Notes: generated from the sequence alone by a model not told the origin. A DNA stretch of 64,000 bases from Euryarchaeota archaeon TMED117 (GCA_002171315.2 NHFS02000013.1:1062-65061); one strand, 5' to 3'. Counted from the stretch's first letter, positions 7,386 through 22,000 are shown. A program made the numbers and translations.

Positions 7386-10300
7386 ATGAGATTCACAAAT
7401 ACAGGAAAAAGTGTCGGTTTAGTAGGATTACTACTCACATCGTTATTGATGGGTCTTATGACCGTACCAGCAGTAAGTGCTGTAAACGAGACATCAAACG
7501 GAACGATCACTACAACTGAAACATGGAGTGGTACTCACACCGTCACAGGAGACGTGACCGTAGCAGAAGGTGCCAAACTTGTCATAAATGCTGGTACGAC
7601 TGTAAACATCAAAGCAGGTGCTTTCATTGAAGTTGAGGGAGCAATCTGTGCAGGTTCTGCCTCCTGTGGGGCTAGCCAAGCTAGTGCTTCCTCCCCAGTT
7701 CGTTTTAATTGGGCATCACCTGCTGACACATCTGTAGTTGGGCGATGCAGTGTTCAAGGAAATAATTTATTGAACAACCCTGATGCTGCATGCGGTTCGG
7801 GCGTCATCATTCGAAATACAATCAACCAGGCATCAACGGGTCTATCTTTCGTTCAATTTGACAAAGCCTACGGCACGCCGGTCTACGTAACTTCATTGCA
7901 GGTTTTCAAGTATGCTGCACTGATTTTTGACGGTTCATCTTTAACAGCAGATAACCTAGGCTTTTCTGATATCAATACGACAAACGTGATTGCAATTGAC
8001 CTCGCAGCACCATCAATACGAGACTCAACCTTCACTCTTGGAATTGATGGACTCGGGTACAATGGCCCCGGTGTTGAAGCATTTAGCGCAGGTGCTGGTA
8101 TCTTGTCCAAATTCAGTATTACTGGTTCAGAATTCACAGGTGACGCTGATGCTTCTTGCGAAGATGGAATAAGTTTGATTTATTCAGAGGATTCCTTCAT
8201 TGAACTAGATAATCTCGATATTAAGGATAATGCGCAAGGTGTGTTCCTTCGAGGATCGTCAGGCTCCTTTGGAAACTCAACACTTGACGTAAAATGCAAT
8301 GGTATTGACACCAATTCTCACAAGATGACTGGCGATTATTCACATACTCTTTATGTCGATAACAACCAAATCACAACTGGTGATGGTGCTGGAATTACTG
8401 CTTATGATGGTTCAATTATTTCTGCAACTGGTAATACGATTTCAGGAGCAGCACAAGGTTCCGGATTTGGTATTCGTGATTCGGCAGTAAGTGCACATCA
8501 GAACACCATTGGTCCAATCACTGGTTACAACGGCTTCTGGGTGTTCGGAAATTCTGACGTAGAAATCGAGAACAATACCGTTACTAATACCGCTAAGGAA
8601 CCAATTAAGGTTGGTGAATACCTCTACCAGGATAGCGGAAGTAACTACCCTAGTCCTTCACCAAATCGCGCATATATTGCAAACAACATCGTTGCGAATA
8701 ACACAGGTGTATGCAACTCTGTTTGGATGTATGGTGGCGATTTCCAATGCCCTGCAATTCACATCTTTATGGCATCTGCTACAATCGTAGGTAACACTGT
8801 CACTGGAAACGCAGGTGATGGGATTCGAATCAAGGGTTCAATTGTAAACGTTCAAGACAATATCATCGAAGCAGGACAGTTTGCTGCCAATATCAGCCAT
8901 TTTGATAACAAGTATGGATCTAAATTTGGTTCGATTGGATACTTTTCAGGTAACACTTGGACAAATGCCACACAAATTTACAACATTTCTGAATCAAGAG
9001 TAACCGTTCAGTCAGAATACATTCCAGATGCTCAAGGCGGATACACACACCCTGTAATGCTCTCATGGCAAGGTGCCGAGTGCCCTTATGTGCAATCTGA
9101 GTGTTTGTTACTCCCTGATACAAGCATTATGCCTCCTCGAGACATGCCGCTTGCAATTGAGTTGGTAAACAACTCGACAGTGTTCTCCTTTGCTGATTTA
9201 CAGAATTTTGATGCTACGAAAGTTCATGTTCAAAATCAGAACTCCGCTTGGGGTACTCAAGTTCGTGAGGGTGAACTTGTTCGGTATCAAGTGAAAGCAA
9301 AGAACAGCAACGTTGCAGGTGCAACAGTCATCATCAAAGACGCTACTGGTTTGCCTATCTATGAACTCACAACCGATGAATTTGGATTCACTCAACAAGT
9401 GTCTCTTCCATCCGACTTCTTACTGGATCGTAATTGGAATCACTTTGTAGGAGAATCTGATGTCACAATACCTGGTGCTCTCGATGATGATGGAAATCCA
9501 ATCGTCGTGACTGAAGATACTTGTTCTGACGGTTATGACAACGATGGTGATACCTATGTTGATGATGAAGATACAGACTGTGTAAACGGCAGAGAATTAC
9601 CATTCTATATTGTCGAAGCATACAAATTTAACAAAGGAAAGAAAGATTTCAACTTTGTTTTGAGTGGACCTGTTGACGATATTATCAATCTGGACAACCT
9701 CCGCCCAGGGGTAACAATTGAACAATACGACGGAGATTCGTTTGCGATCAATGCAGTCATTACTGGATCTGCTTGGGATGGACAACTCGGAGGTCAGACT
9801 GATTACCTCGCTTATCAACTTCAATTTGGTCTGGTTGATCGTGTTGAGATTCAACCACCAGGCAGTTCAGATTGGTACTATGCGGTTGATACATCTGGTG
9901 CTAATGGAGAGTTGACAAAAGAAAATCACCCATTCAAGTCTTGGTCATTCCAATGGGATCTATCAGCTCATCCTGAAGGAGAAAGCGATGTAACATTCAG
10001 AATCCGTTCATACGATGGTCTTGATTACTCTCCAGTTGAAGTACGAAAATTCAAACTCAACCTCGTACCTCCTACATTGTACCTCAACGAACCTCTTGAT
10101 GGTTCAACACACACGAACGGTAACATCCTCTTCACAGGAACTGCTTCTGACCCATATTCAGGTACTTGGGGATCCGATATCCAAGATGTCTGGTTTGATG
10201 TAACTGGACCGAATGGATACAGTTCTCACTTTGCAATTGACGGTTCAGTCGCATGGGCATATCAATGGAATTTCGATGAACTTGAATCTGGTGAATATCA

Positions 10301-11726
10301 TTTCGAAGTTTGGGCGAGTGACAGTGATTATTGTGATGATGAGCAAGATATCTGTGTTATTCAAACAAGAACAGTGATCGTTGTAAATGATAACATCATT
10401 CCAATCGTCGATTTACTTGAGCCAGATGGTACAGAAACAGTTCGTGCAAGTACGAACACGACCTTGATTGGATTTGCAAGCGATGGTGCTGATGGAACGA
10501 TTACTCGTGTAGAAATTGTCATCACGGACCTTGCAAGTGGATTGATTCTCAACAATGGTCCTGGGCCTGTAACCGATTTCACTAAGACCGGGCCTGGATA
10601 TTCATGGACTGCATTGTGGGATACCAGTAAACTCGACCACGAAGGACAGTATGAAATAAGTGTCAAAGCCTACGATGGTGAAGATTATTCAGTTTCTGAC
10701 GTAGTTCGAATCACCATTGATAAGCCAACAGATGAGAACAATATCCCTCCACAATTCGACAGAACAAACTGGAAGAATACGGTTACAATCTTCTGTGTTA
10801 AGGATTCATCATCTGAAAACCAATGTGGCGGCGGCGCTTCTATTGATTTGAAGGAATTCTTCTCAGATCCCGATGGTGGATTTGATGAACTGAGTATCGA
10901 TTTCGTCGATGACCTAACAATCATTGACGACAATTTCCATCCCGTCTATGTCGTCATTGACAGTAATGGTGTTGCCAGATACGATCCAGCAACATCGCGA
11001 ACAGATGAAGCAATTGAGGAATGGACTCTTGAAAACGTTCGTTTCGTTGTTCGAGATACTCAAGATTCAGTAATTTACTCAGAGGGTGTTACATTCTTTG
11101 TTCAATCGATTGAATTCAATGCTCAAAGAATGGATGCTGGTGAGTCTGTTACTGCCAATGATCCTGCAGTCTTTAACGGAACTGGATTGCCTGGAAGCAG
11201 AATTGAAGCACGTACTGTTTCGAGTTCAACATTCGTAAAATCTGTTGTTGTAGGTGACAATGGTATCTGGTCGATGGAACTTACCTTGCAAGACATGAAT
11301 GATGCTTCAAATGAAATCAAGTTTGAAATGGATGGCCAAACCTTCGGAGGTACAAACGATCCAACTGCATTCAATGTCGCAGTTGGTGCTGATGATGATG
11401 GCGGTAATCTAATCCTCATCATCGGATTGGTCATTGCAGCTCTTGTTCTACTTGGGGCGATTGGATTCTTCTTTATTGAACTTGAAGATATTGAAGATGA
11501 GGCATTTGAAACTGAAAATCAACAAGTCGTTGAAGAAGATCCATATGCATGGGGTCGTAAAGACGTCGCAGAGATTCCTGCAGCACAGCAACCTCAACAG
11601 GTTGTTCAACAACCAGAAGCTCAGCCTGAGGCGGCTCAAGCCTCTGCTCAGCACCCTGGATGGCTGTGGGACCAAGAATCAAATCAATGGGTCCCTGATC
11701 CAAATTACCAACCACCTTCACAATAA
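7386..11726 (+). CDS. giant surface protein: signal peptide, parallel beta-helix (PbH1) repeats, Ig-like modules, C-terminal TM anchor and Trp-rich tail
   Basis: N-terminal signal-like VGLVGLLLTSLLMGLMTVPAVSA. PbH1-type repeats include LYVDNNQITTGDGAGITAYDGSIISATGNTISGAAQGSGFGIRDS, VEIENNTVTNTAKEPIKVG and IVGNTVTGNAGDGIRIKGSIVNVQDNII. There is a Cys-bounded acidic motif CSDGYDNDGDTYVDDEDTDC (9522-9581). The TM helix LILIIGLVIAALVLLGAIGFFFI is followed by an acidic segment, a Gln/Pro-rich segment and then HPGWLWDQESNQWVPDPNY. Confidence 0.85.
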   Translation: MRFTNTGKSVGLVGLLLTSLLMGLMTVPAVSAVNETSNGTITTTETWSGTHTVTGDVTVAEGAKLVINAGTTVNIKAGAFIEVEGAICAGSASCGASQASASSPVRFNWASPADTSVVGRCSVQGNNLLNNPDAACGSGVIIRNTINQASTGLSFVQFDKAYGTPVYVTSLQVFKYAALIFDGSSLTADNLGFSDINTTNVIAIDLAAPSIRDSTFTLGIDGLGYNGPGVEAFSAGAGILSKFSITGSEFTGDADASCEDGISLIYSEDSFIELDNLDIKDNAQGVFLRGSSGSFGNSTLDVKCNGIDTNSHKMTGDYSHTLYVDNNQITTGDGAGITAYDGSIISATGNTISGAAQGSGFGIRDSAVSAHQNTIGPITGYNGFWVFGNSDVEIENNTVTNTAKEPIKVGEYLYQDSGSNYPSPSPNRAYIANNIVANNTGVCNSVWMYGGDFQCPAIHIFMASATIVGNTVTGNAGDGIRIKGSIVNVQDNIIEAGQFAANISHFDNKYGSKFGSIGYFSGNTWTNATQIYNISESRVTVQSEYIPDAQGGYTHPVMLSWQGAECPYVQSECLLLPDTSIMPPRDMPLAIELVNNSTVFSFADLQNFDATKVHVQNQNSAWGTQVREGELVRYQVKAKNSNVAGATVIIKDATGLPIYELTTDEFGFTQQVSLPSDFLLDRNWNHFVGESDVTIPGALDDDGNPIVVTEDTCSDGYDNDGDTYVDDEDTDCVNGRELPFYIVEAYKFNKGKKDFNFVLSGPVDDIINLDNLRPGVTIEQYDGDSFAINAVITGSAWDGQLGGQTDYLAYQLQFGLVDRVEIQPPGSSDWYYAVDTSGANGELTKENHPFKSWSFQWDLSAHPEGESDVTFRIRSYDGLDYSPVEVRKFKLNLVPPTLYLNEPLDGSTHTNGNILFTGTASDPYSGTWGSDIQDVWFDVTGPNGYSSHFAIDGSVAWAYQWNFDELESGEYHFEVWASDSDYCDDEQDICVIQTRTVIVVNDNIIPIVDLLEPDGTETVRASTNTTLIGFASDGADGTITRVEIVITDLASGLILNNGPGPVTDFTKTGPGYSWTALWDTSKLDHEGQYEISVKAYDGEDYSVSDVVRITIDKPTDENNIPPQFDRTNWKNTVTIFCVKDSSSENQCGGGASIDLKEFFSDPDGGFDELSIDFVDDLTIIDDNFHPVYVVIDSNGVARYDPATSRTDEAIEEWTLENVRFVVRDTQDSVIYSEGVTFFVQSIEFNAQRMDAGESVTANDPAVFNGTGLPGSRIEARTVSSSTFVKSVVVGDNGIWSMELTLQDMNDASNEIKFEMDGQTFGGTNDPTAFNVAVGADDDGGNLILIIGLVIAALVLLGAIGFFFIELEDIEDEAFETENQQVVEEDPYAWGRKDVAEIPAAQQPQQVVQQPEAQPEAAQASAQHPGWLWDQESNQWVPDPNYQPPSQ
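11652..11708 (+). other. C-terminal Trp-rich tail motif (variant): HPGWLWDQESNQWVPDPNY
   Basis: It lies within the last 24 residues of the 7386-11726 product, after the TM helix and a Q/P-rich linker. It resembles the tails at 30095-30148 and 60425-60478. Confidence 0.6.
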
Positions 11727-11733
11727 ACGGTGA

Positions 11734-14256
11734 GTGGATAAGATGATTGCCAAACCTGGGGTACAGGAAAAAATCCTGTTGCATCTGCTTGATTATGCAG
11801 ATTTCAAAGAAAAAGTGGAGGTTCCATTTTCGCTTTCACAAATGGGAATTGCAAACGCTGTAGCAATTGCACGTTCAAATGTCCCTCGTGCAATATCAGG
11901 ATTAAGAGATCAAGGCCTACTTGTTGAACGACAAGCTCACGTACATGGTGTTAGTCGAAAACGGAAAGCGTATTTTTTGACTGACTCAGGAATTATAGCA
12001 GCAGAAGAAACATGGGAACGTCTTCGTCAATTCCAATTTCGATGCATTGGGTCTGATGGTGAGGCGTTGAGCACCACTTTAGGGGCTGCTCATGAAGTCC
12101 TACCATTTGCAATGAGACCAGTTGATATTATTCGTTATCTTGATGATAATTTAATCCTCGATGTTCGCCCACTGACAGAAGATCTCATCGAGCGTGATTT
12201 ATCGAAGCAAGTTGAGAAACAGTTGGTGACATCTCTTGGTGACCTTCCAAGATTACGTCATTTCTATGGTCGTGAAAAAGAACTCGATAACATGGTCAAT
12301 CTACTTGAGGCGAGAGCTACAACTCTACTCGTCCCAGGTATAGCAGGCATTGGTAAAACAACAATTGCCGCTAAATTGATTGAACGATTTATGCATAGAA
12401 GAAATCTATTGTACCATCGTTGTCAAGATTGGGAAGGTTCTCGTGCCATGTTTGAGGCCATTGCAGACTGGTTACTCAACATCGGTGACTCCTCATTTTC
12501 AGATTATCTGGCAGCAACTCCTGTTCCAAAACCCGATGATGCAGCACGAATTTTAGTTGATTCATTAGAAAATACTCTTACATTAATTGTGATCGATGAT
12601 TTTCATAAAGTCTCAGATCCCATTTTATTCCAAACCATTCAATCGATGACGCTTGGTTTGTTGGGTAGTGAAGAGTCAATTGGACTCGTCATTTTCTCAC
12701 GCTCATTCAGACCGGTTGTTCCAACAAAAGATGCAGAAGGAAGAATTACCAGTTTGGTATTGCCACTTGATGGTCTAGATTCAGAATCTGCACGGCATAT
12801 ACTTTCAGGTTTTGATGACCTTTCTACTGAGCAATGGCTTCACATTCACGGTTTATCCCGAGGACATCCATTGGTCTTGGAATTAATTAACAGAGGCGCT
12901 TCAGCAGGAGCATTTCACGACACACTCGAGCATTATGTTACCAAGGAAATCTTCTCGAAACTTACAGCAGAGCAAAAGCGAGTATTGACCGTACTCTCAA
13001 TCTTCAGGGAATCTGTAACGCTCGAAGCATTACTTGCCCACGAACTCGACGTTGATGTCTTGGATAGTTTAGTCGAACAAGGTCTGGCGAGGCAAGTTGA
13101 CACCGATGTATTTGACGTACACGATTTGATCCGTGAATTTTTGCTTCAAAGTTTAGACGAGCCAACCAAGAAAGAAGTTCACAACAGTTGTGCAGCATAT
13201 TATGCAAAACAAGCAAAGAGTTCAGAAGCTACATTGGAGCAAATTTACCATGAACTTGCATCAGACCATCAACAAGAAGCAATCTCTAAGATTGTGGAAT
13301 TTGGTCGTGATATTGTTTCCCAAGGTCACCTTGAACTTCTCAGTCTCATCGAGGAAGTAAATACGGACGGACTCAAACCAAAGACACTGGCTCCAATGCT
13401 TCAACTTCAAGGTGACATACTGCTCATGTTAGGACGATTTGAGCAAGCTTCAACAATTTTCGAGCATGCAAGTTCAGCCTCACAATCAGCAGGATCAGAA
13501 GTTATTTTCTCAGAAATTCTCGGGTCTCAGGCTGATATCGCTATGAAACAAGGCAAAACCGATTCTGCTCTTGAATCCCATAAACAAGCACTTGAAGTTC
13601 AAGTGAAATTAGGTGATTCGAAAGGGGCTGCTCGAACGTACAATAATATGGGTTATTTGTATCGTAGAAAGAATGACAAATCAAAGGCATTAGCAGCATA
13701 TTCAGAGGTCGAAGCGATTCTCTCAAACGATCATTCTCTACTTAGTGCTCAGATTATTTTGGGTAGAGCATTGCTTGATCTTGGCGAAGTCGAGCGAGCC
13801 AGAAAACATGCATTCGAGGCATTTGAACGAACCGATGAAGCTGAGGATTTGTTACTTCATGCACGTGCTCAAGCACTCCTAGGAAGATATCATGCCAAAA
13901 TGAATGATTCCGAAACGTCTCTTCATCATTATTCGGAGTCACTAAACGTGATGTCTGATGCAGGAGACCCTGTTTCTTTGGTTGAAATCACAATCTTGTT
14001 GGGAGAGGTTTTGGAAGATAGTGGTCGCAGTGAAGAAGCTCTGGAACGCTATCGAGAAGCACTCATTATCGCAGAAGCAAACGATTTGCGCATGCAAATT
14101 GGTGAATTGTTGTCTAAACTTGGTGGTGTTGCACCAGATCGTCAGCGTAGAATGGAATACTTACAGCGAGCCCTAGCAGTGTTTAGAGAATTAGGAGCGC
14201 GAACACGAATGCGAGAAGTACAAGCTCAGGTTCATGCTGCTGTCATGGGGCGTTAG
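11734..14256 (+). CDS. wHTH - STAND/NB-ARC-like P-loop NTPase - TPR protein (putative signal-transducing transcription regulator)
   Basis: The N-terminal winged-helix-like segment is FSLSQMGIANAVAIARSNVPRAISGLRDQGLLVERQ...RKRKAYFLTDSG. Walker A is LLVPGIAGIGKTTIAAKL and Walker B-like is TLIVIDDFHKV. The C-terminal third carries TPR-like repeats, e.g. AARTYNNMGYLYRRKNDKSKALAAYSEV and EEALERYREALIIAE. The start is GTG 11734 or ATG 11743, only 7-16 nt after the preceding stop. Confidence 0.8.
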   Translation: MDKMIAKPGVQEKILLHLLDYADFKEKVEVPFSLSQMGIANAVAIARSNVPRAISGLRDQGLLVERQAHVHGVSRKRKAYFLTDSGIIAAEETWERLRQFQFRCIGSDGEALSTTLGAAHEVLPFAMRPVDIIRYLDDNLILDVRPLTEDLIERDLSKQVEKQLVTSLGDLPRLRHFYGREKELDNMVNLLEARATTLLVPGIAGIGKTTIAAKLIERFMHRRNLLYHRCQDWEGSRAMFEAIADWLLNIGDSSFSDYLAATPVPKPDDAARILVDSLENTLTLIVIDDFHKVSDPILFQTIQSMTLGLLGSEESIGLVIFSRSFRPVVPTKDAEGRITSLVLPLDGLDSESARHILSGFDDLSTEQWLHIHGLSRGHPLVLELINRGASAGAFHDTLEHYVTKEIFSKLTAEQKRVLTVLSIFRESVTLEALLAHELDVDVLDSLVEQGLARQVDTDVFDVHDLIREFLLQSLDEPTKKEVHNSCAAYYAKQAKSSEATLEQIYHELASDHQQEAISKIVEFGRDIVSQGHLELLSLIEEVNTDGLKPKTLAPMLQLQGDILLMLGRFEQASTIFEHASSASQSAGSEVIFSEILGSQADIAMKQGKTDSALESHKQALEVQVKLGDSKGAARTYNNMGYLYRRKNDKSKALAAYSEVEAILSNDHSLLSAQIILGRALLDLGEVERARKHAFEAFERTDEAEDLLLHARAQALLGRYHAKMNDSETSLHHYSESLNVMSDAGDPVSLVEITILLGEVLEDSGRSEEALERYREALIIAEANDLRMQIGELLSKLGGVAPDRQRRMEYLQRALAVFRELGARTRMREVQAQVHAAVMGR

Positions 14257-14723
14257 AACATCGGACGGTCCAGTTCAAGAGAAATTTTACCTTCATGGTG
14301 AACAACCCAAATGTATTCGACACCGGCGAGTTCAACCGTCCCTGTATGGGGCGCTCCACCAGTACCAGACAGTGATCGTTCCGTATCGAGCTCCCCTCCA
14401 GCATCGTACAAAATCAACTGAGTATCTGTCAGTTCAAGAGTGAATTGAGATTCATCAGCTTCTGTTGCTCTCCAGTAGACTCTTTCCGCATAGGAAGTGT
14501 TGTCAATACGGCTTGCAGAATCTGTTCGTTCAATGGCAGATGCTAGATCGTTCATATTAGCATCAATTGCTTCTTCGTTCCAACGCTCTCGAGTTGCAGT
14601 TTCAATATCATATATCCATAGACTAAACATTGTGAGCAGTAAGACTCCAAGCAAAAATGTGAACACGTATCCCAGTTCAGTTGCAGCAGCCTCAGTCCTG
14701 CGTTGGAGTTGCGATTGTCTCAA
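14253..14723 (-). CDS. class III signal peptide (archaeal type IV pilin-like) protein, small
   Basis: The N-terminus MRQSQLQRRTEAAATELGYVFTFLLGVLLLTMFSLWIY has a short charged head followed by a hydrophobic stretch of more than 20 residues, as in archaeal prepilins. Its start overlaps the upstream stop by 4 nt (14720-14723). Confidence 0.65.
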   Translation of the reverse strand: MRQSQLQRRTEAAATELGYVFTFLLGVLLLTMFSLWIYDIETATRERWNEEAIDANMNDLASAIERTDSASRIDNTSYAERVYWRATEADESQFTLELTDTQLILYDAGGELDTERSLSGTGGAPHTGTVELAGVEYIWVVHHEGKISLELDRPMF

Positions 14724-16909
14724 CCAATCACCTCCGCTACGTATGCATCAAGTGATGAAATTTGTAACGAAAATTGAATTGGTTCACCAGCGGTATGCCA
14801 TATCGATTCTGATGTTCCAAAACCTGGATCAGGGACCCAGCCGACATAATCGGATAAGAGGTCAAGCCTGCCTGGATATATTGTCCAATCAAGACTTGAC
14901 TCGAGCCCATCTGTTGAAGTTAAAGCAATTGCTTCACCGTAAGGTTCAGCCCATCCTCTACGAACTTCGTATGCAATATCACTTGCGAGGCTGGTTCTTT
15001 TTGAGAGTGTTACTTCCATAGATAATTTGCCGCTACCAGTTGCAGAGTCTGAGGTTGGGTGGAGCGATGGAATAGTAGCAGCAAACCGAGGGCCGGGGCC
15101 TCCACGATCTGCTGGAGATACAATCACTGTTGGATTAAATTCTGGATGATTGGTCACGACAGCTCCGCCAGTCATTGCAACCTCCATTCCAGTGACAGAG
15201 GATTCAAAGGAGTAGGTAAATCGAGAAATTTGCATAATCCATGCACTTCCAATTGGGGTATAGGGCTCCTCAACAACCATACCATACATTTGCATATGGA
15301 CACTCGCTGGATAACTTCCTGTTTGCCACGCTGTTTGCATGTCAATGATACTTCGTCCACCCATGCTTTCCCATGGCATTTTCAAATCGACCCATCCAGA
15401 AGCAGTAACATCCACGGAGACACATCTTCGCTGACCATCATGCATGGCTTGAATAAGACCTCTTGTTCCATTCATTGCAGTGGTATACATTCCATATCCT
15501 TCGGTCGTATTCAGATATATGTCCTCATTTTCTACAGCCATTTCAAGAGACGCCCCTTGTTCAAGGACCGTGTTATTTGAAATCAAATTAGAGGCGTTTA
15601 AAATCGTCTGTGCTCCATTTGCTCGTACGTTAATATCAAGAGAATGAGTTGTACTTATTTGGAATTGCTTTCCTGATTCCATCCCTGTATCTGCTGCTCC
15701 GATTTGGAAAACCCCGTTTGTTTCGGCGTTGCTTTGCCATTGAATACCAATTGGCACATCAGAATTGAGAGATGCTGCTCCATCAATTCCTGATGGAGGC
15801 CATTGAACTCGATCAGAACTCATTGCTGCCACAGTAATACCGTTACCTCTCCAAGTTGCCGTTGCTGATACTGTGTTTGGATTCGTCAAAACGAGATACC
15901 CTGGTTGGGATGGGGGGATGAATGATGTTCCATGGAGAGCCCCACTGTCGCTTTTCCAAGCAGTTGCCCCTTCAATTGCATCCAGAGACACCATCAACTG
16001 TGCGTCTGCTGTCGTGGTAAGATGGACCACTTGAGGGCTTGCTAAGGTCAATGACTTAGACCAAGAAGTCTCAACATTAACCAATCCTGAAGGAACAGCA
16101 ACTTCTGTGAATGAACCAAATTGTCCGTTCCCGTTTACCATGATGAGTTGGTCAGAAACGATATTCAAGTTTACAATCCCCTGTGGCAAAGGAAGGGCCC
16201 ATGAACGGCCTTTACCGTTTGCACCTGCATCACTGGCTTGGATTTCAGATGAACCATTTCCATTTTTCAACCAATAGACTTCCAATTCTTGTGTAGATTC
16301 AATTTTGTAGTTATCGCCATCAAGATCCCATTGTGTAATGTCGTCTACAAATAATTCCGCTGTTTGAGCAAGAACTCCATCCTGGAGTAGATCTAACGTA
16401 ATCGGGCCGAGAGGGAAACTGAGGCCTGGTTTGGTGGTAAGTATTACTGAGTTGGCCCAAGATGGTGCGGTGTAATGGAACGGGCGGTCAGGCCCAAGTC
16501 GCATATCTGAGAAACAAACTGAACTTGTTGTAGATTCTGGGTGACGTAATTGGAGTTCATCATCGAAATCGATCACATCTCTTATTCGAAACGAGTGGCC
16601 TTCCTCCCATGTCGATGAATACCACATACCACTTCGCATAGCATCCCATTCAAGTGACCCGTCTACCGGTACGAATTCTTGAGTCACTACGTCTCCAGGC
16701 ATCCCTTTTTCTGCTAAAGTTGTGGTTTGTTGATTGAATTGGGTCATCTGTGCTGCCATATCATGACGCTCAACACTGCCTTCGAGTTCTTCGATAACTG
16801 GAATCATTGTGACCATCATGATGCTGATGATCGAAAGAACTCCTCCAAACAAGAGAACAGTTGCAATCGCAGCAGAAACTGCTTCTTCATTTCGCTGAAG
16901 TTCATTCAT
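14720..16909 (-). CDS. class III signal peptide (pilin-like) protein, very large (729 aa), beta-rich ectodomain
   Basis: The N-terminus is MNELQRNEEAVSAAIATVLLFGGVLSIISIMMVTMIPVI, with an AVS-x2-I motif followed by a hydrophobic helix. The start overlaps the upstream stop by 4 nt (16906-16909). There are no other TM segments. Confidence 0.65.
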   Translation of the reverse strand: MNELQRNEEAVSAAIATVLLFGGVLSIISIMMVTMIPVIEELEGSVERHDMAAQMTQFNQQTTTLAEKGMPGDVVTQEFVPVDGSLEWDAMRSGMWYSSTWEEGHSFRIRDVIDFDDELQLRHPESTTSSVCFSDMRLGPDRPFHYTAPSWANSVILTTKPGLSFPLGPITLDLLQDGVLAQTAELFVDDITQWDLDGDNYKIESTQELEVYWLKNGNGSSEIQASDAGANGKGRSWALPLPQGIVNLNIVSDQLIMVNGNGQFGSFTEVAVPSGLVNVETSWSKSLTLASPQVVHLTTTADAQLMVSLDAIEGATAWKSDSGALHGTSFIPPSQPGYLVLTNPNTVSATATWRGNGITVAAMSSDRVQWPPSGIDGAASLNSDVPIGIQWQSNAETNGVFQIGAADTGMESGKQFQISTTHSLDINVRANGAQTILNASNLISNNTVLEQGASLEMAVENEDIYLNTTEGYGMYTTAMNGTRGLIQAMHDGQRRCVSVDVTASGWVDLKMPWESMGGRSIIDMQTAWQTGSYPASVHMQMYGMVVEEPYTPIGSAWIMQISRFTYSFESSVTGMEVAMTGGAVVTNHPEFNPTVIVSPADRGGPGPRFAATIPSLHPTSDSATGSGKLSMEVTLSKRTSLASDIAYEVRRGWAEPYGEAIALTSTDGLESSLDWTIYPGRLDLLSDYVGWVPDPGFGTSESIWHTAGEPIQFSLQISSLDAYVAEVIG

Positions 16910-17946
16910 CCGTTGACCACCATCCGGCGAATATCAATCTCCAAAGAGAGTCCAACGTTTTGAGTTTCTACAGTAAATCCATCTATTCCGCTTGCCCTTT
17001 GATAGGGTGAGATGCCGATGAATTCATCAAGTGTACCTGAGGCTCGATTAAGTGTGTAATCGGTCAGCCAAATTTCATGATATTGGGGGTCTACGATTGA
17101 GTGCAATGTGTTTTTCACCATGACTCTCAAGTTGTATGCCTCTCCCGTAAAGAGTTGGATAGGTCCCATTGATTCAACTTTAAATCCAACATTTGGGCCA
17201 TTGCCTAGGGATTCGCTGAGTTGAACATCTGTAAGGACAAGGGAAAGTCTTGTTGTGCCATCAACAAGGGTGTCAAGACGTAGACGTGGTGCTTTTTCTA
17301 TTTCCCATGATGTGCTCGGATCTTTTGATATTCGTGCATCATTAATCAAAACAATTTGATTGAGGCCACCATCAATGTTGGTGCTAATGCTCAATCCGGA
17401 TAACACAAATCGAGCCCATCGGTGAACATGAGTGCCTCCTTCATTGTACATGTCCACTATCAAGTATGTTTCACTGGTTAAATTATGTTCAATTACAGTA
17501 GAATCAAACGTCGGTTCAACTGCGAACGATACCGAATTCGTAGGATTTGTGACCACAACTGATGTAACAGATTCATTCATTGAGATGTAGTGCAATGAAC
17601 TGCTATTGATCTCTTCCACTTGGACCACTTCATACGGCGTTAAATCCGCTGCAAGCACCCATTCTTCCACAAGTTGTACTGGATTGATTGAAGAAGCTTG
17701 TAATGAGAGGGCTTGGCGAGTTCCTGTTCCATTTGGAGCATCTCCCACAACGTCAAGTCGATCTTCAATACGATCGGCAATGTTGTTGGCACTGTTCCAA
17801 TTCGTATTGTCTTGGAAGGCGACAAGATACGGATTTAGAAATACGAAAACACCTCCCATGATGCTAACAACCATTGCCAACATCATGATAACCCCGAGGA
17901 TTTCGCTTACCCCATCATCCTCTTTATTTCGCTCTCGTCGCTGCAT
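16906..17946 (-). CDS. class III signal peptide (DUF1628-like archaeal pilin N-terminus) protein
   Basis: The N-terminus MQRRERNKEDDGVSEILGVIMMLAMVVSIMGGVFVFL closely resembles the archaeal pilin consensus (R/D)GVS-x-(V/I)-(I/L)-GV-(I/V)-L-(L/M)-V-A. The SD-like GAGGGGGG lies 6-13 nt upstream of the ATG. Confidence 0.7.
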   Translation of the reverse strand: MQRRERNKEDDGVSEILGVIMMLAMVVSIMGGVFVFLNPYLVAFQDNTNWNSANNIADRIEDRLDVVGDAPNGTGTRQALSLQASSINPVQLVEEWVLAADLTPYEVVQVEEINSSSLHYISMNESVTSVVVTNPTNSVSFAVEPTFDSTVIEHNLTSETYLIVDMYNEGGTHVHRWARFVLSGLSISTNIDGGLNQIVLINDARISKDPSTSWEIEKAPRLRLDTLVDGTTRLSLVLTDVQLSESLGNGPNVGFKVESMGPIQLFTGEAYNLRVMVKNTLHSIVDPQYHEIWLTDYTLNRASGTLDEFIGISPYQRASGIDGFTVETQNVGLSLEIDIRRMVVNG

Positions 17947-18013
17947 CGTCGTCCCCCCTCTTGTGTCTTGAGCATCTCGCCTGCATTTAGGGATTGACCT
18001 GCTGTTTATTGAT

Positions 18014-18844
18014 TCATAGCAATTCTCTGGCTATTCTTTGGATTGCGTTTGTTGCAAATCCATCTCCGTCTCTACGGCCTATGAAGTGCGAAAAGTGAGG
18101 GCCGTCTTGGGTGGAGATGTTGATGTCACCTTCAAAGATTTCATCTATTTCAAAAAGAACACTTGACTCTGCTAAGTGCGGTGCATTGTTCATTTCAGAA
18201 AGATGTGTTAGAGTAATGCTTCTGGTTTTATCTGTGCATACCTCTTTCAAGAATTGTCCTGTTTGTTTGTTGGACAAGTGACCTCCTCTCCCAGAGATTC
18301 GATCTTTCAGAGATCGGGGATAAGGGCCATTCATCAACCTGTTCGTATCGTAGTTCGCCTCCACTGCAATATGTTCACATCCATGAACATGGTCAACGAG
18401 TTCGTCAGTCCATGAACCAAGGTCTGTGATTATGGCTGTTCTTTCCCCTCCATGACTGGCTACAAATGCTACGTTTTCTGCTCCTGAATGTGGTACAGGT
18501 ACTGGCAGCAATGATGTTCCTCGAGAGAACTGTAGCACATCTAGAGATTCAAAATGGTGTGTTAATTCAGGAAGAAGACCCAATTCTTGGGTTGTTCGAT
18601 GGTTGGCATAAATTGGAATGCCCCAACGCTTCTGCGCTATCAGCGCACCTCCTCCATGGTCTCCATGATGATGAGTAATGACGATTGCTTCCAGATCCTT
18701 TGGACTCACGTCGAGAAGATTCAATCGTTTTTCTAACTGCACGCCGCTGAATCCCTGATCCACAAGGATGTGGGATGATTCAGTGCTGAGAAGTGTGGCG
18801 TTACCACGACTTCCAGTGCCAAGGTGCGTAATCGATAGCCCCAT
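18014..18844 (-). CDS. metallo-beta-lactamase fold hydrolase (YycJ/PhnP-like)
   Basis: ITHLGTGSRGNATLL...ILVDQGFS, the HxHxDH motif ITHHHGDHGGG, and a downstream GRGGHLSNKQ typical of the YycJ-like subgroup. The ORF track starts at 18886. I prefer M15 (18844), or M10 (18859), because it gives the canonical short N-terminus. Confidence 0.8.
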   Translation of the reverse strand: MGLSITHLGTGSRGNATLLSTESSHILVDQGFSGVQLEKRLNLLDVSPKDLEAIVITHHHGDHGGGALIAQKRWGIPIYANHRTTQELGLLPELTHHFESLDVLQFSRGTSLLPVPVPHSGAENVAFVASHGGERTAIITDLGSWTDELVDHVHGCEHIAVEANYDTNRLMNGPYPRSLKDRISGRGGHLSNKQTGQFLKEVCTDKTRSITLTHLSEMNNAPHLAESSVLFEIDEIFEGDINISTQDGPHFSHFIGRRDGDGFATNAIQRIARELL

Positions 18845-19017
18845 CCCAATCAAGTTCATGGGGCAACAGACGGATATTGAATACACCGCATGATTCAGGT
18901 CAAAAGCATCGAATTCTGGGCTTCTAAAAGCGGTTCACTGTATGAACAACGCTCCATCATTCCTATAAGCATGGAGACAAGGACAAATCATGCGGCGTTT
19001 GCCGCTTAGGTGTTTTT

Positions 19018-22000
19018 TTGCGACGAAGTCAGACAACCTTGCTCTCCACTCTCGCAGTAATCGCTGGGCTCCTCTTCATGTCACAGTTTCCAACGATTTC
19101 TCCAGTTGCGAATATATATCCTGATGATACAACTGGTGAGGGACCTCCTACAACTGATACGGACGGAGATGGGATTCCCGATGTTCATGAGGCTATTTTT
19201 GAGGAGTGGGTGAACTTTAGCGCAGTCGATGGCCGACTCGTTTCGATGGAGGGTATGGATAAAGAAGACGCTTCAGATGCCAATTTCGATACCGATAGAG
19301 ATGGTTTGAATAACACAGAAGAGTATTGTTGGCCGTATCCTGCTAATTGCAATGATCCAGGTTTTTCCAGAGGTTTGACAGGCTTATTGGATGAGAATGG
19401 TGATCGACAATATCTCGATCCCCGTATGTCAGACACTGATGGTGATGGAATGCCTGATGGATTTGAAGCGGCTATGTGCGCTCGTGCCGGTGGATTCGAT
19501 ATTGTCACACTCAGATACATTTGCCCCTATTTTGACCCACTGAATAACAGCGATATGACCGATGACCCTGACGATGATGGGTTTGATGTCAACAGAGATG
19601 GTTTCATCTCAATCGCAGAACAGTATACTTCTCCTGAAGAATATCGGTTTGGTTCGCCGGGTAATTTTACTACTGAACTTGATGGTCTGTGGTGTGCTGC
19701 CACTCTCCCTCAAGGCTCTGTAATTACACAATGGCCATTCATCAATACAGGCGTAAATGCGTCATTCCAGAACATACTTTCTGCGTGTACAACAAATGCA
19801 ACATCATTCGTCGGAGAAGATCTTTGGCTTGGTACCGACCCACTGCTTGAAGATTCAGATCGATACAGCTGGGATGGCTTCGCTATTCGCCCACTGTATC
19901 CCTCCTTTGGAGACGGTATGCCAGATGGCTGGGAAGTACACTTTGGATTGAATCCACTGAATCGTTCAAATGCTTTACTTGACATTGATGCGGATGGTTG
20001 GGATGTAAACCGAGATGGTGTTGTTTCAATTGATGTGAGTCGGACTGAAACAGCCTTGTCATTAGGAGAATCTCTGTCAAATCTTGAAGAATTTTACATC
20101 CATAACGATGAAGGCAATTCGGTAATGTCTGGTTTGAAAGAAATCCAGATTGGGTTAAATGATTCATCATACTACAGTTATCCACTCACGTTCAATGCTG
20201 TTGAAGGCAATATGGCAGTCATGCACCATGATGTTCGAAGTATTTTAGTTGAAGATTCATTCGCATACGTACTTACTCGCTATGGAATGACCGTGCTGGA
20301 TTATGAACTCGGTGTAACTCAAGATTACTGGTTCCCTCAAGGGTTCACTGGCTATGAAGCAATCTTCGTTGAATCTGATAACGGACCTCATTCTGTTGCG
20401 ATAGCAACTTCACACGGTATGCACGTTGCAGCAATTCAAGTTGATGGATTTTTGGAACCAATTAGTTCCTGGTCCTCAAGTGATCCTGTTCCGCTTTTCG
20501 CATTGACTCGACTTGCAATTGATGGATCATCGCAACAGATTATTGCTCTTGGTTCGAATGGAGACGGTGCTGTTTACGAAGTAACAACCGGTGGATTGAT
20601 TTCTCAAACCTTTGAACTAGGTCTTAATCTCAAAGCAACACTTTCCGAATCTCAAGTTACAGTCACAGAACTTGCTCATGGAAGTGTCCCAGGCGGTGGA
20701 TTGGTGCTTTATGTCGGTACTGAACGGGGATTAATGACTCTTGAATCTGCCACTGGAAGAGATGAAGCAACACCTTCATGGAGATTTTTCTTTGACCCTA
20801 ATCCCTCTCTTATTTCGAATCGTATCGATGACCTCAGAACGCTAAACTTAGGGGCAAGCGGCAATCCTGCAGAAGTTCAAGCATTGCATCTTGATGGCCC
20901 CAACCAAGAAAATCCAACGGTTCTGTGGATTGGTACGCCATCTGGTTTGCATCGTTTGAATTTAGAAATCAATGACATGACTTTTGGCGGGCTACTTGAA
21001 CATCCCGGAGGCGATGCTGAAGAACTCTCGAAATCCAACAACATTCATTCCATTCTCCCTACTGGAGATGAAATCATCATCGGTTCTTCCGCTGGTCTGT
21101 GGATTCTTGCAGGAAATCATCTGGACGTTTATGGTCTTCAATCGCAATCTGAATTACCCGGTGAACTTGCTGCTCTGAGCACGTTACAAAAGAACGGCAA
21201 CACATACATTCTTGCAGGGGCTGCTCCTGGACAATTTGCAAATCTTGAACTAATCGATCCTGGAGCAAACGATTCAGATAGTGATGGAATCCCTGATGGG
21301 TGGGAAATTGCCTATGGATTAGATCCTACAGACCCGTGGGATGCATTATTGGATGGAGATGTTGACGGTCTTGATTTGAATCAGGATGGTTCTCTTGATA
21401 GATTGTGGACTAATTTGGAAGAGTACCGTTACATCGCACGTTCTGATGATGGATATAATTCAACACTTCCTAATCAGAGTGATTCCGACTTGGATGGTCT
21501 TCTGGATGGTTCGGAATACTTCGGTTACTTCCTAGAAGAAACCAATTTCGATTGCTACTACAATCCTCAGTTAGTTTACCTCTGTGACGAGACACTTGGT
21601 GAACAAGCAAGAACGCTTTATTCAAGTTCAAACGCTCTTGATGTAGGTACAGATCCTACTGTAACAGACACCGATGGAGACGGCATGCCCGATGGTTGGG
21701 AAATTGAACATCGTCGTTGGATTGGTAATTCTTTCAATGGAGGCAATAATTGGTCTCTTGACCCAACTCGTGCGGAAGATGCAGGCTGGGATGCTGATCA
21801 GGATGGACTTGCCAATCTATGTGAGTATGAATGGTCATTGGTTCGACTCGCAGGACTTGCAGGTGATTTGTTCGAAGACTATGGCGAGAGCCCTGAATCT
21901 GCTGCAACCTGGTCGATACCTGATCCAAACCTCTACGATTCAGATGGAGATACTCTCCCTGATGGATGGGAAGCAGATGGCCAATGCACTTGGTCTCCTC

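What the first reader, a model, noticed from the sequence alone, without database searches (positions are those of the whole stretch)
14253..17946. Compact three-gene operon of class III signal peptide (type IV pilin-like) proteins, one of them 729 aa, with no assembly machinery nearby
Three consecutive minus-strand genes (346, 729 and 156 aa) are linked by 4-nt ATGA start/stop overlaps at 16906-16909 and 14720-14723.

Each begins with a short charged head followed by a hydrophobic stretch of more than 20 residues, of the archaeal prepilin type:
- ...DDGVSEILGVIMMLAMVVSIMGG
- ...EEAVSAAIATVLLFGGVLSIISIMM
- ...TEAAATELGYVFTFLLGVLLLTMF

No FlaI/TadA-like ATPase, FlaJ/TadC-like platform protein or prepilin peptidase is visible in the 64 kb. 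The only same-strand neighbour upstream is an MBL-fold hydrolase, 67 nt away.

A 729-aa pilin-like protein is far larger than a major pilin. It suggests a tip adhesin, or a pseudopilus- or sheath-like surface structure assembled by machinery encoded elsewhere.
Basis: partly seen in the sequence, partly recalled or inferred. Interest (0 to 1): 0.6.

Follow-up and report, generated by a model that had tools for sequence, protein, structure and literature searches.

The report
Pilin-like three-gene operon in marine archaea
Three back-to-back genes in a Marine Group II archaeon (order Poseidoniales) encode surface proteins whose front ends look like archaeal type IV pilins; the trio is kept in both families of the order sampled here, but what it does, most likely a small pilus-associated adhesion complex, is still only inferred.

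Summary
Three minus-strand genes (346, 729 and 156 aa) overlap by 4 nt, but the second junction is TTGA (TTG start), not ATGA.

The window comes from a Poseidoniaceae (Marine Group II) archaeon. All three N-termini carry an acidic-x-[A/G]|V-S (third protein: |A-A-T-E) site ahead of a single hydrophobic helix. This is the processing motif of Haloferax and Natrinema type IV pilins. Position -1 is A or G in every orthologue examined.

- **Profiles:** Pilin_N, arch_flag_Nterm and DUF7289 match only this N-terminal segment, and mostly below their thresholds.
- **Structure:** AlphaFold2 gives the 346-aa protein a pilin-like shape, a 60-residue helix followed by a beta-rich domain (pLDDT 85). The 729-aa model failed.
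- **Distribution:** the 729-aa family has no relatives outside Poseidoniales (119 clusters among 1.84 billion).
- **Conservation:** the trio, its overlaps and a TATA-like box upstream recur in loci with 34-62% GC, including Thalassarchaeaceae.
- **Machinery:** none lies within 64 kb. That is normal for archaeal pilin genes.

Best reading: a fixed-ratio minor-pilin-type complex with the 729-aa protein as the exposed subunit. This is a new variant of a known kind, of moderate interest.

The parts
16906..17946 (-). g1, 346-aa pilin-like protein. Predicted processing between G12 and V13. The model has a helix at residues 9-68 followed by a beta-rich domain.
   Evidence: ORF. Pfam Pilin_N E 0.0029 and DUF7289 E 2.4e-4, N-terminus only. 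TIGR02537 E 0.0026. AF2 pLDDT 85, pTM 0.77. N-terminal alignment to solved archaeal pilins. 82 orthologues.
17911..17946 (-). g1 predicted class III leader, MQRRERNKEDDG (residues 1-12), ending in G at -1.
   Evidence: V13, S14 and E15 are invariant in the 24-sequence alignment and at +1 to +3 of the 73 distinct N-termini fitting the search pattern. -1 is A or G in all orthologues.
14720..16909 (-). g2, 729-aa pilin-like protein. Predicted processing between A10 and V11. It has a single N-terminal hydrophobic helix, and the low-confidence model and its composition suggest a mostly beta, acidic ectodomain.
   Evidence: ORF. DUF7289 N-terminal match E 0.049. Family alignment. Only 119 clusters in 1.84 billion representatives. 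AF2 failed, pLDDT 37.
16880..16909 (-). g2 predicted class III leader, MNELQRNEEA (residues 1-10).
   Evidence: Among the 98 distinct N-termini fitting the search pattern, -1 is A in 96 and G in 2, -2 is E or D in 84, and +1/+2 is mostly VS. The 6 variants that do not fit the pattern also read A|VS.
15470..16372 (-). g2 variable middle region, about residues 180-480.
   Evidence: Mean column conservation is 0.38-0.66 here, against 0.8 or more at both ends, across 75 orthologues.
14750..15202 (-). g2 conserved C-terminal region, about residues 570-720, with invariant motifs T-x-HPE, R-x-GW, S-x-DW and DY-x-GW.
   Evidence: C132 and C496 are also invariant.
14253..14723 (-). g3, 156-aa pilin-like protein with a TTG start. 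Predicted processing between A12 and A13, ahead of the invariant AATELGY-FTFLLGV.
   Evidence: ORF. Alignment. -1 is A or G in all orthologues. Weak full-length DUF7266 match in 5 of 21 members, best E 0.004.
16906..16909 (-). ATGA overlap of the g1 stop and the g2 start.
   Evidence: A 4-nt overlap is kept in 123 of 137 distinct loci.
14720..14723 (-). TTGA overlap of the g2 stop and the g3 start.
   Evidence: A 4-nt overlap is kept in 105 of 137 distinct loci, with ATG, TTG or GTG as the start.
17985..17990 (-). Conserved TATA-like box, CTAAAT, 39 nt before the g1 ATG. Probable promoter of the three-gene operon (inferred).
   Evidence: CTAAAT, CTAAGAA or CATAAGAA is present in 103 of 127 distinct MBL-g1 spacers, in 100 of them 60-89 nt before the g1 +1 codon, against 2.5% of random windows.
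17953..17960 (-). Shine-Dalgarno-like GAGGGGGG, 6 nt before the g1 ATG.
   Evidence: Read from the sequence. Similar GGGGAGG or GAGGGG elements occur in orthologous spacers.

Best explanation
g1, g2 and g3 are three type IV pilin-like (class III signal peptide) proteins of a Poseidoniaceae archaeon. They are transcribed from their own promoter and translationally coupled, so they are made in fixed, roughly equal amounts.

Proposed mechanism:
1. Each protein is inserted by its N-terminal hydrophobic helix.
2. The short acidic leader is removed after the conserved A/G by the cell's prepilin peptidase.
3. The three proteins assemble through their helices into a small minor-pilin-type complex. The 729-aa protein supplies the exposed, fast-evolving, probably adhesive part.
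4. The complex sits on or primes a filament built by FlaI/FlaJ-type machinery encoded elsewhere.

Shown: the genes, their coupling, the conserved motif, the pilin-like model of g1, and conservation in both families of the order.

Inferred: cleavage, complex formation, dependence on the machinery, and adhesion.
For: - **Motif:** the processing-site motif is identical in type to Haloferax PilA (DA|VS, RA|VS). It is conserved in all orthologues of all three proteins, with A or G always at -1 and acidic residues at -3 and -4.
- **Profiles:** three independent profiles (PF07790, TIGR02537, PF23960) align from their first positions to this site.
- **Solved relatives:** the top three PDB sequence matches of the g1 profile are archaeal pilins.
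- **Structure:** the g1 AF2 model is a 60-residue helix followed by a beta-rich domain (pLDDT 85). PDB fold matches are only weak ones to Ig/FN3-like sandwiches, which fits the all-beta, Ig-like description given for euryarchaeal minor pilins.
- **Topology:** each protein has one hydrophobic segment only and an acidic ectodomain.
- **Coupling:** 4-nt or 1-nt overlaps occur in at least 90% of 137 loci. This argues for fixed proportions, which suits a complex rather than a major filament subunit.
- **g2 conservation pattern:** conserved ends and a variable middle, as expected for an exposed surface.
- **Machinery in the lineage:** all MGIIa genera carry an archaellum operon with FlaHIJ.
- **Precedent:** pilin sets encoded away from the machinery are documented.
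- **Expression:** pieces of all three genes appear in marine metatranscriptome assemblies.
Against: - No profile match reaches its curated cut-off for the window's proteins, and all matches are confined to the N-terminal helix.
- The -2 residue is charged in only about 43% of g3, 71% of g1 and 86% of g2 orthologues that fit the search pattern. A charged -2 is reported as critical for archaeal prepilin peptidases.
- The g2 structure is unknown, and g3 was not modelled.
- No prepilin peptidase, ATPase or platform gene was seen directly in this genome. Their presence rests on the literature for the family.
- No major pilin partner was identified.
- The trio also occurs in Thalassarchaeaceae. Many lineages of that family are reported to lack the archaellum operon, so dependence on that machinery is doubtful.
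- The metatranscriptome evidence is low-depth contigs that may include DNA.
Confidence: 0.5

Rival explanations
1. The three proteins form a static, membrane-anchored surface complex. They keep a pilin-derived N-terminal helix as a plain signal anchor, cleaved or not. They form a cell-envelope complex without any type IV pilus assembly ATPase, for example one that anchors or organises the envelope, as the pilin-like FlaF/FlaG do for the archaellum.
For: - The trio is kept across both families of the order, in single copy in every locus read, including Thalassarchaeaceae. Archaellum genes are reported missing from many MGIIb lineages.
- No machinery lies within 10 kb in 172 loci.
- -2 is often uncharged in g3.
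- Fixed-ratio coupling suits a stable complex.
- JGI labels some g1 homologues 'FlaG/FlaF family'.
Against: - The strict A/G at -1 and the acidic leader are conserved over deep divergence, which a plain anchor would not need.
- There is no Pfam match to archaellin or FlaF/G families.
- Whether archaellum-less lineages that carry the trio lack all T4P machinery was not tested.
Confidence: 0.25
2. The trio is a pseudopilus-like device that serves the neighbouring giant surface proteins. It would be a short piston or scaffold, analogous to the type II secretion pseudopilus, that helps to export, anchor or display the 1400-2000-aa proteins and subtilases encoded on both sides.
For: - The gene order giant-giant-MBL-g1-g2-g3-STAND-beta-helix giant-S8 is kept in loci with 34-62% GC, where g2 is only 29-40% identical.
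- The neighbours are Sec-signal, C-terminally anchored surface proteins.
Against: - The collinearity continues into unrelated genes (the NUDIX gene in L161, L162 and L165), so it may be plain genome conservation.
- The neighbours are on the other strand or in separate transcription units.
- No archaeal type II secretion analogue is known, and there is no secretion ATPase nearby.
Confidence: 0.08
3. The three proteins are accessory parts of the archaellum, encoded away from the fla operon. For example, they could be the FlaF-like stator components that were not annotated in MGII fla operons.
For: - MGII fla operons are annotated only as FlaA, G, H, I and J.
- g1 gives weak arch_flag_Nterm and UpsA matches.
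- JGI names some homologues 'flagellin-like'.
Against: - There is no match to PF01917 or other archaellum families at E up to 1.
- The trio is present in Thalassarchaeaceae, a family in which many lineages lack archaella.
- At 729 aa, g2 is unlike any known archaellum component.
Confidence: 0.07
4. The three proteins are the major structural subunits of a thick pilus or sheath-like fibre.
Against: - Translational coupling at about 1:1:1 and low representation in metatranscriptomes are not what major subunits show.
- Major archaeal pilins are small, often stand-alone genes.
- The sizes are very unequal (156, 346 and 729 aa).
Confidence: 0.05

Closest known systems
Haloarchaeal type IV pilins with the Pilin_N (DUF1628, PF07790) N-terminus: Haloferax volcanii PilA1-6; Natrinema PilA2 (PDB 8gi2); 8fj5; 9myg
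   Same: An acidic leader, a processing site [D/R]-A|V-S, then the G-V-I-hydrophobic helix. The g1 consensus 'DERAVSEVLGVIMLLAMVVTI' aligns with 'DEERAVSPVIGVILMVAITVIL'.
   Different: - Those are 140-170-aa major pilins encoded by stand-alone genes, whereas here the proteins are 346, 729 and 156 aa in one coupled operon.
- Similarity stops after the helix.
- The Pilin_N score is below its cut-off (18.9 against 25.2 bits).
- E replaces P at +3.
arCOG02911, the 'signature' predicted minor pilin of euryarchaeal clade 2 type IV pili (Makarova et al. 2016)
   Same: A class III signal, 250-550 aa, all-beta and Ig-like. It was recognised only through TIGR02537. The g1 model fits that description.
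   Different: arCOG02911 usually lies next to the ATPase and TadC, for example in Aciduliprofundum. Here no machinery is adjacent. Membership could not be tested because no arCOG profile was available.
[quoted passage not shown]
   Same: Several pilin-like proteins, needed together with a separately encoded major pilin.
   Different: The Epd proteins have KGQ/RAQ sites cut by EppA, with Q at +1. There is no sequence similarity, and none of them is a 729-aa member.
Bacterial minor (pseudo)pilin tip complexes: type II secretion GspI-GspJ-GspK, and type IV pilus minor pilins with the large adhesin PilY1
   Same: This is an analogy only. It is a small set of unequal pilin-like proteins made together, with the largest at the tip. 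From general knowledge, GspK lacks the conserved Glu5. Here g1 (E at +3) and g3 (E at +4) keep an invariant Glu, whereas g2 has none in its first residues.
   Different: There is no homology and no outer membrane or secretin. Complex formation was not tested. The Glu pattern is suggestive only, because archaeal pilins often lack this Glu.
Pfam DUF7289 (PF23960) and DUF7266 (PF23928), archaeal families of unknown function
   Same: These are the best Pfam matches for g1 and g2 (DUF7289) and for g3 (DUF7266). Some g1 homologues carry a precomputed PF23960 hit.
   Different: DUF7289 matches cover only profile positions 1-72 of 238, which is the N-terminal helix. Only two of the four g1 homologues tested just reach the 27-bit cut-off. 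DUF7266 reaches at most E 0.004, in 5 of 21 g3 members.

Membership tests
Archaeal class III signal peptide (type IV pilin-like) proteins | A short charged leader, with a small residue (G/A/S) at -1 placed directly before the hydrophobic domain, not after it. | tested here: met
   -1 is A or G in every orthologue of g1, g2 and g3 in 172 loci. -3 and -4 are mostly D or E. The hydrophobic helix follows at once.
Archaeal class III signal peptide (type IV pilin-like) proteins | A charged residue at -2, reported as critical for archaeal prepilin peptidases. | tested here: inconclusive
   Among the distinct N-termini that fit the search pattern, -2 is charged in 52 of 73 for g1, 84 of 98 for g2 and 32 of 74 for g3. 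The window's own proteins have D, E and E (rule).
Archaeal class III signal peptide (type IV pilin-like) proteins | A long N-terminal alpha-helix followed by a beta-rich globular domain. | tested here: met
   Met for g1: helix 9-68 followed by beta strands, pLDDT 85. Unresolved for g2 (pLDDT 37).
Archaeal class III signal peptide (type IV pilin-like) proteins | Cleavage by a PibD/FlaK-type prepilin peptidase and assembly by a FlaI/PilB-FlaJ/PilC pair. | not testable with these tools
   No such genes lie in the 64 kb. The rest of the genome could not be read. The literature reports FlaHIJ in all MGIIa.
Pilin_N (PF07790) / arch_flag_Nterm (TIGR02537) | Score at or above the curated cut-off. | tested here: not met
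   g1 scores 18.9 against 25.2 bits, and 17.2 against 20 bits. g2 and g3 have no hit. Homologues score 19.4-20.1 bits. The alignment register is right, from profile position 1.
DUF7289 (PF23960) | A match over the 238-position profile at 27 bits or more. | tested here: not met
   g1 scores 21.2 bits and g2 13.6 bits, over positions 2-72 only. Homologues score 24.9-28.7 bits, over positions 1-65 only.
DUF7266 (PF23928) | A match at 27.6 bits or more. | tested here: not met
   g3 scores 14.2 bits over positions 5-144 of 145. 5 of 21 members match, best E 0.004.
arCOG02911 minor pilin | Membership of the arCOG profile, and adjacency to a clade 2 ATPase/TadC. | not testable with these tools
   No arCOG profile or member sequence was available. 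Adjacency is not met in any of 172 loci.
Archaellins / FlaF / FlaG | A match to the archaellin family profile (PF01917). | tested here: not met
   No such hit at E up to 1 for g1-g3 or at E up to 0.1 for divergent homologues.
Anti-phage STAND/MBL systems (e.g. AVAST type 1), considered for the flanking MBL and STAND genes | A significant match to defence-system profiles, and a patchy distribution. | tested here: not met
   PADLOC and NCBIfam give only weak hits limited to short N-terminal stretches: Avs1a at 17-21 bits against a 420-bit cut-off. Both genes are kept at the same place in almost every locus that reaches that far, at 49-73% and 42-71% identity.

The most novel reading that the evidence does not exclude
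The trio is a core, order-wide envelope complex of Poseidoniales. It descends from type IV pilins but no longer depends on any pilus assembly ATPase. On this reading it is present in lineages that lack archaella and all FlaI/FlaJ genes. It would work as a fixed membrane-anchored stalk or adhesin, possibly organising the giant surface proteins encoded around it. That would be a case of pilins recruited to a non-filament role, with a 729-aa ectodomain family that has no relatives elsewhere.
Probability: 0.2. Interest if true: 0.65.

Novelty: new variant of a known kind. Interest (0 to 1): 0.4.

Why it matters
Marine Group II archaea are the most abundant archaea of the surface ocean and remain uncultured. 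How they attach to particles and algae is a central open point of their ecology, and so far it has been argued only from archaellum, thrombospondin-like and flotillin genes.

A pilin-like trio found in both families of the order has so far been annotated only as 'hypothetical'. It is a concrete, testable candidate for a second adhesion structure, or for the adhesive end of the known one. It also adds new families (g2, g3) to the catalogue of archaeal class III signal peptide proteins. If the trio occurs in lineages without any pilus machinery, it would show pilin-like proteins working outside a filament.

Tried and rejected
- **g2 structure:** AF2 on a 25-sequence alignment with at least 68% identity gave pLDDT 37, which is unusable, so no fold search was run on it.
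- **g1 fold search:** Foldseek against the PDB found nothing below E 1e-3, only generic Ig/FN3 sandwiches.
- **PDB sequence searches:** profiles of g2 and g3 gave only noise.
- **Paralogy among the three:** profile-profile comparison of g1 with g2 and of g1 with g3 found similarity only in the N-terminal helix, so they are not recent duplicates.
- **Defence-system reading of MBL + STAND:** rejected.
- **Terminator hairpin after the MBL gene:** clear hairpins exist in some lineages, but folding energies are not different from random windows of the same loci (median -12.0 against -10.8 kcal/mol). The claim was dropped.
- **Synteny as proof of a functional link with the giant surface proteins:** rejected as proof, because collinearity runs on into unrelated genes.
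- **Literature:** searches for DUF7289/DUF7266 and for pilins in Poseidoniales found nothing relevant.
- **Archaellum-less genomes:** an attempt to link trio-bearing MAGs to the archaellum-less subclades through the supplements of Tully 2019 failed, because TMED85 is not listed there.

Full report
**1. The observation**

Listing ORFs over 12-21 kb gives three consecutive minus-strand ORFs:
- g1, 16906-17946 (346 aa, ATG start)
- g2, 14720-16909 (729 aa, ATG start)
- g3, 14253-14723 (156 aa)

At 14723-14720 it shows TTGA, not ATGA. g3 begins with TTG, and there is no in-frame ATG before its hydrophobic segment. The MBL-fold gene (18014-18886; Lactamase_B and Lactamase_B_2) ends 67 nt upstream of g1. 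The g3 stop overlaps the stop of a convergent 840-aa protein with an HTH, a STAND-type AAA_16 ATPase domain and TPR repeats (11734-14256).

Each of the three proteins has exactly one hydrophobic window, at the N-terminus, and an acidic remainder. A six-frame scan of the whole window for 'polar residue - A/G - V/A/Q - S/A/T ... hydrophobic 22-mer' found only g1 and g2.

**2. Source and surroundings**

The exact g2 protein lies on TARA and other marine metagenome contigs. Its relatives are named Candidatus Poseidoniaceae or Poseidoniales, so the window is from a Marine Group II (MGIIa) archaeon.

Pfam scans of every ORF of 120 aa or more that does not lie inside a longer ORF found housekeeping genes, two subtilases and several giant surface proteins. 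The housekeeping genes include aminoacyl-tRNA synthetases, ribosomal protein S15, RNase HII, DnaJ, GAPDH and adenylate kinase.

This is ordinary for archaea. Makarova et al. describe ATPase/TadC modules acting on pilins encoded in trans, and many pilin genes outside T4P loci (PMC4858521). In Cuniculiplasma the pilin genes lie about 500 kb from the machinery (PMC12448462).

**3. Are the N-termini of the prepilin type?**

Family alignments show the following:
- g1: ...[D/E]-[D/E]-x-[A/G] | V-S-E-[V/I]-L-G-V...
- g2: ...[D/N]-[E/D]-x-A | V-S-A-A-[I/V]-A-T-V-L-L-F...
- g3: ...D-x-x-[A/G] | A-A-T-E-[L/I]-G-Y-x-[F/L]-T-F...

Across the 172 loci fetched, the residue before the bar is A or G in every orthologue of each protein, including variants such as A|LSDVIGM or G|TVEIGY. 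Among the N-termini that fit the search pattern, position -2 is charged in 71% (g1), 86% (g2) and 43% (g3).

The review table of experimentally studied archaeal pilins lists DA|VS and RA|VS as the PibD sites of Haloferax PilA1-6. It states that G/A/S at -1 is general and that a charged -2 is critical in archaea (PMC4371748).

Profile evidence agrees in register but is weak in score:
- g1 hits Pilin_N (E 0.0029, 18.9 against 25.2 bits), DUF7289 (E 2.4e-4) and TIGR02537 (E 0.0026).
- g2 hits DUF7289 (E 0.049), and g3 hits DUF7266 (E 0.037).
- In more distant homologues, DUF7289 reaches 24.9-28.7 bits but always over profile positions 1-65 of 238. Only the N-terminal helix is shared.
- A profile of 119 g1 relatives searched against all PDB sequences ranks three solved archaeal pilins first (8gi2, 8fj5, 9myg), aligned as rederAVSEVLGVIMLLAMVVTI against DEERAVSPVIGVILMVAITVIL. 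E is about 0.3 each, not significant singly.

**4. Structure**

AlphaFold2 on the 119-sequence g1 alignment gave pLDDT 85 and pTM 0.77, with a helix over residues 9-68 followed by a beta-rich domain. This is the pilin architecture. Foldseek against the PDB found only weak matches to Ig/FN3-type sandwiches. That fits the 'all beta, Ig-like' description of the euryarchaeal minor pilin arCOG02911 but identifies no specific relative.

The g2 model failed (pLDDT 37) because the only admissible alignment was shallow. g1, g2 and g3 are not detectable paralogues beyond the helix.

**5. Distribution**

A profile of g2 searched against 1.84 billion representative proteins found only 119 clusters. About 14 of these are full-length, all 715-768 aa and collinear. 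One cluster is named Thalassarchaeaceae (MGIIb), and the others are named Poseidoniales or 'Euryarchaeota' MAGs.

The g2 family keeps two invariant cysteines and the motifs T-x-HPE, R-x-GW, S-x-DW and DY-x-GW. Its two ends are conserved and residues 180-480 are variable.

In 92 Poseidoniaceae loci and 80 further marine metagenome loci (GC 34-62%, g2 down to 29% identity), the order is nearly always giant - giant - MBL - g1 - g2 - g3 - STAND - beta-helix giant - S8. In the low-GC loci one giant gene is missing, and the collinearity continues into a NUDIX gene. I therefore treat the wider synteny as genome conservation, not as proof of a functional island.

**6. Operon structure**

In 137 distinct loci the g1/g2 junction is a 4-nt overlap in 123 and a 1-nt overlap in 11. 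The g2/g3 junction is a 4-nt overlap in 105 and a 1-nt overlap in 19, with ATG, TTG or GTG starts. This argues for translational coupling and fixed proportions.

The MBL-g1 spacer carries a TATA-like box (CTAAAT, CTAAGAA or CATAAGAA) in 103 of 127 distinct spacers, in 100 of them 60-89 nt before the g1 +1 codon, against 2.5% of control windows. In the window it lies at 17985-17990, followed by GAGGGGGG at 17953-17960. The trio therefore probably has its own promoter, and the MBL gene is probably a separate unit. This is an inference.

Assembled contigs from four marine metatranscriptomes cover parts of g1, g2 and g3 at low depth, several-fold below the beta-helix giant next door. That is weak evidence of expression.

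**7. Mechanism**

The most likely mechanism, with steps inferred from the known biology of type IV pilin-like proteins, runs as follows:
1. Sec/SRP insertion by the hydrophobic helix.
2. Removal of the acidic leader after A/G by the prepilin peptidase.
3. Association of the three helices into a small complex made in equal amounts.
4. The large, variable g2 ectodomain is exposed, either on a filament made by FlaI/FlaJ-type machinery or priming such a filament.

All MGIIa genera are reported to carry the archaellum operon, which has been argued to serve adhesion (PMC6461757; PMC6336850).

There is a suggestive parallel with bacterial tip complexes. g1 and g3 keep an invariant Glu at +3 and +4, while the largest protein, g2, has none. 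From general knowledge, GspK, the largest pseudopilin at the type II secretion tip, likewise lacks Glu5. This is an analogy, not evidence of homology.

**8. Main doubt**

The trio is present across the order, including MGIIb, where many lineages are reported to lack archaella. Either another T4P machine exists in those genomes, or the proteins work without one. The static-complex rival is therefore given 0.25.

**9. Verdict**

- The 'class III / pilin-like' reading is well supported at the motif and architecture level, but not by any curated family threshold.
- The 'tip adhesin' role is a reasonable, untested inference.
- This is a lineage-specific variant of a known kind of system. It involves new protein families (g2, g3), in an ecologically important uncultured group. 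Interest is moderate.

Noticed in passing
window 24809-30169 (+) and 55643-60502 (+): Two giant surface proteins, a 1786-aa protein of unknown family and a 1619-aa S8 subtilase, both end in a C-terminal TM segment. It is followed by nearly the same tail motif...P(T/G)GLP(E/D)GWT(Q/M)EQWNH(F/Y)G(W/E)QY... The 1446-aa beta-helix protein (7386-11726) has a looser version (GWLWDQESNQW). This may be a shared cytoplasmic sorting or anchoring signal.
   Followed up: no
window 2-30169; loci L001-L172: A block of about 30 kb keeps its order and orientation in both families of Poseidoniales sampled, in loci with 34-62% GC. The block runs giant surface protein, S8 subtilase, beta-helix giant, HTH-STAND-TPR regulator, the pilin-like trio, MBL hydrolase, then two giant proteins. 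In low-GC loci (L161, L162, L165) the second giant gene is absent and the NUDIX gene follows directly.
   Followed up: partly
window 19018-24759 (+): A 1913-aa secreted protein has 19 DxDxDG calcium-binding (thrombospondin type 3-like) motifs, a Sec-type signal and no membrane anchor. It is probably one of the 'thrombospondin' adhesion genes noted for MGII.
   Followed up: no
window 17985-18000 (-) and orthologous MBL-g1 spacers: A conserved spacer element, GGTCAAT-N2-3-CTAAATG in MGIIa and GGCTAAGAAC or GCCATAAGAAC in other lineages. In several lineages it is preceded by a perfect hairpin just after the MBL stop, for example CACCCCCCTAAGGGGGGGTG or CACCTCAGTATGAGGTG. The box is strongly enriched. 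The hairpins are not enriched as a class against random windows.
   Followed up: partly
window 14253-14256: The stop codons of g3 (TAA, minus strand) and of the convergent STAND-TPR regulator gene (TAG, plus strand) overlap. There is no room for a terminator between the two convergent genes.
   Followed up: no
loci L008 and L009 (long polished contigs of 1.87 Mb and 0.58 Mb): g2 and several neighbouring giant genes are split into two or three ORFs, whereas the closely related L007 has them intact. These are likely indel errors of long-read assemblies rather than pseudogenes.
   Followed up: no
loci L041 and L043: Contigs carrying this archaeal locus are deposited in MAGs labelled Salipiger bermudensis and Rhodobiaceae bacterium. 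This is probably mis-binning.
   Followed up: no
window 11000-12400 against 14250-17950: In four marine metatranscriptome assemblies, the 3' part of the beta-helix giant gene and the start of the STAND gene reach word depth 15-30 in three of the four runs. The trio reaches only 0-12.
   Followed up: no
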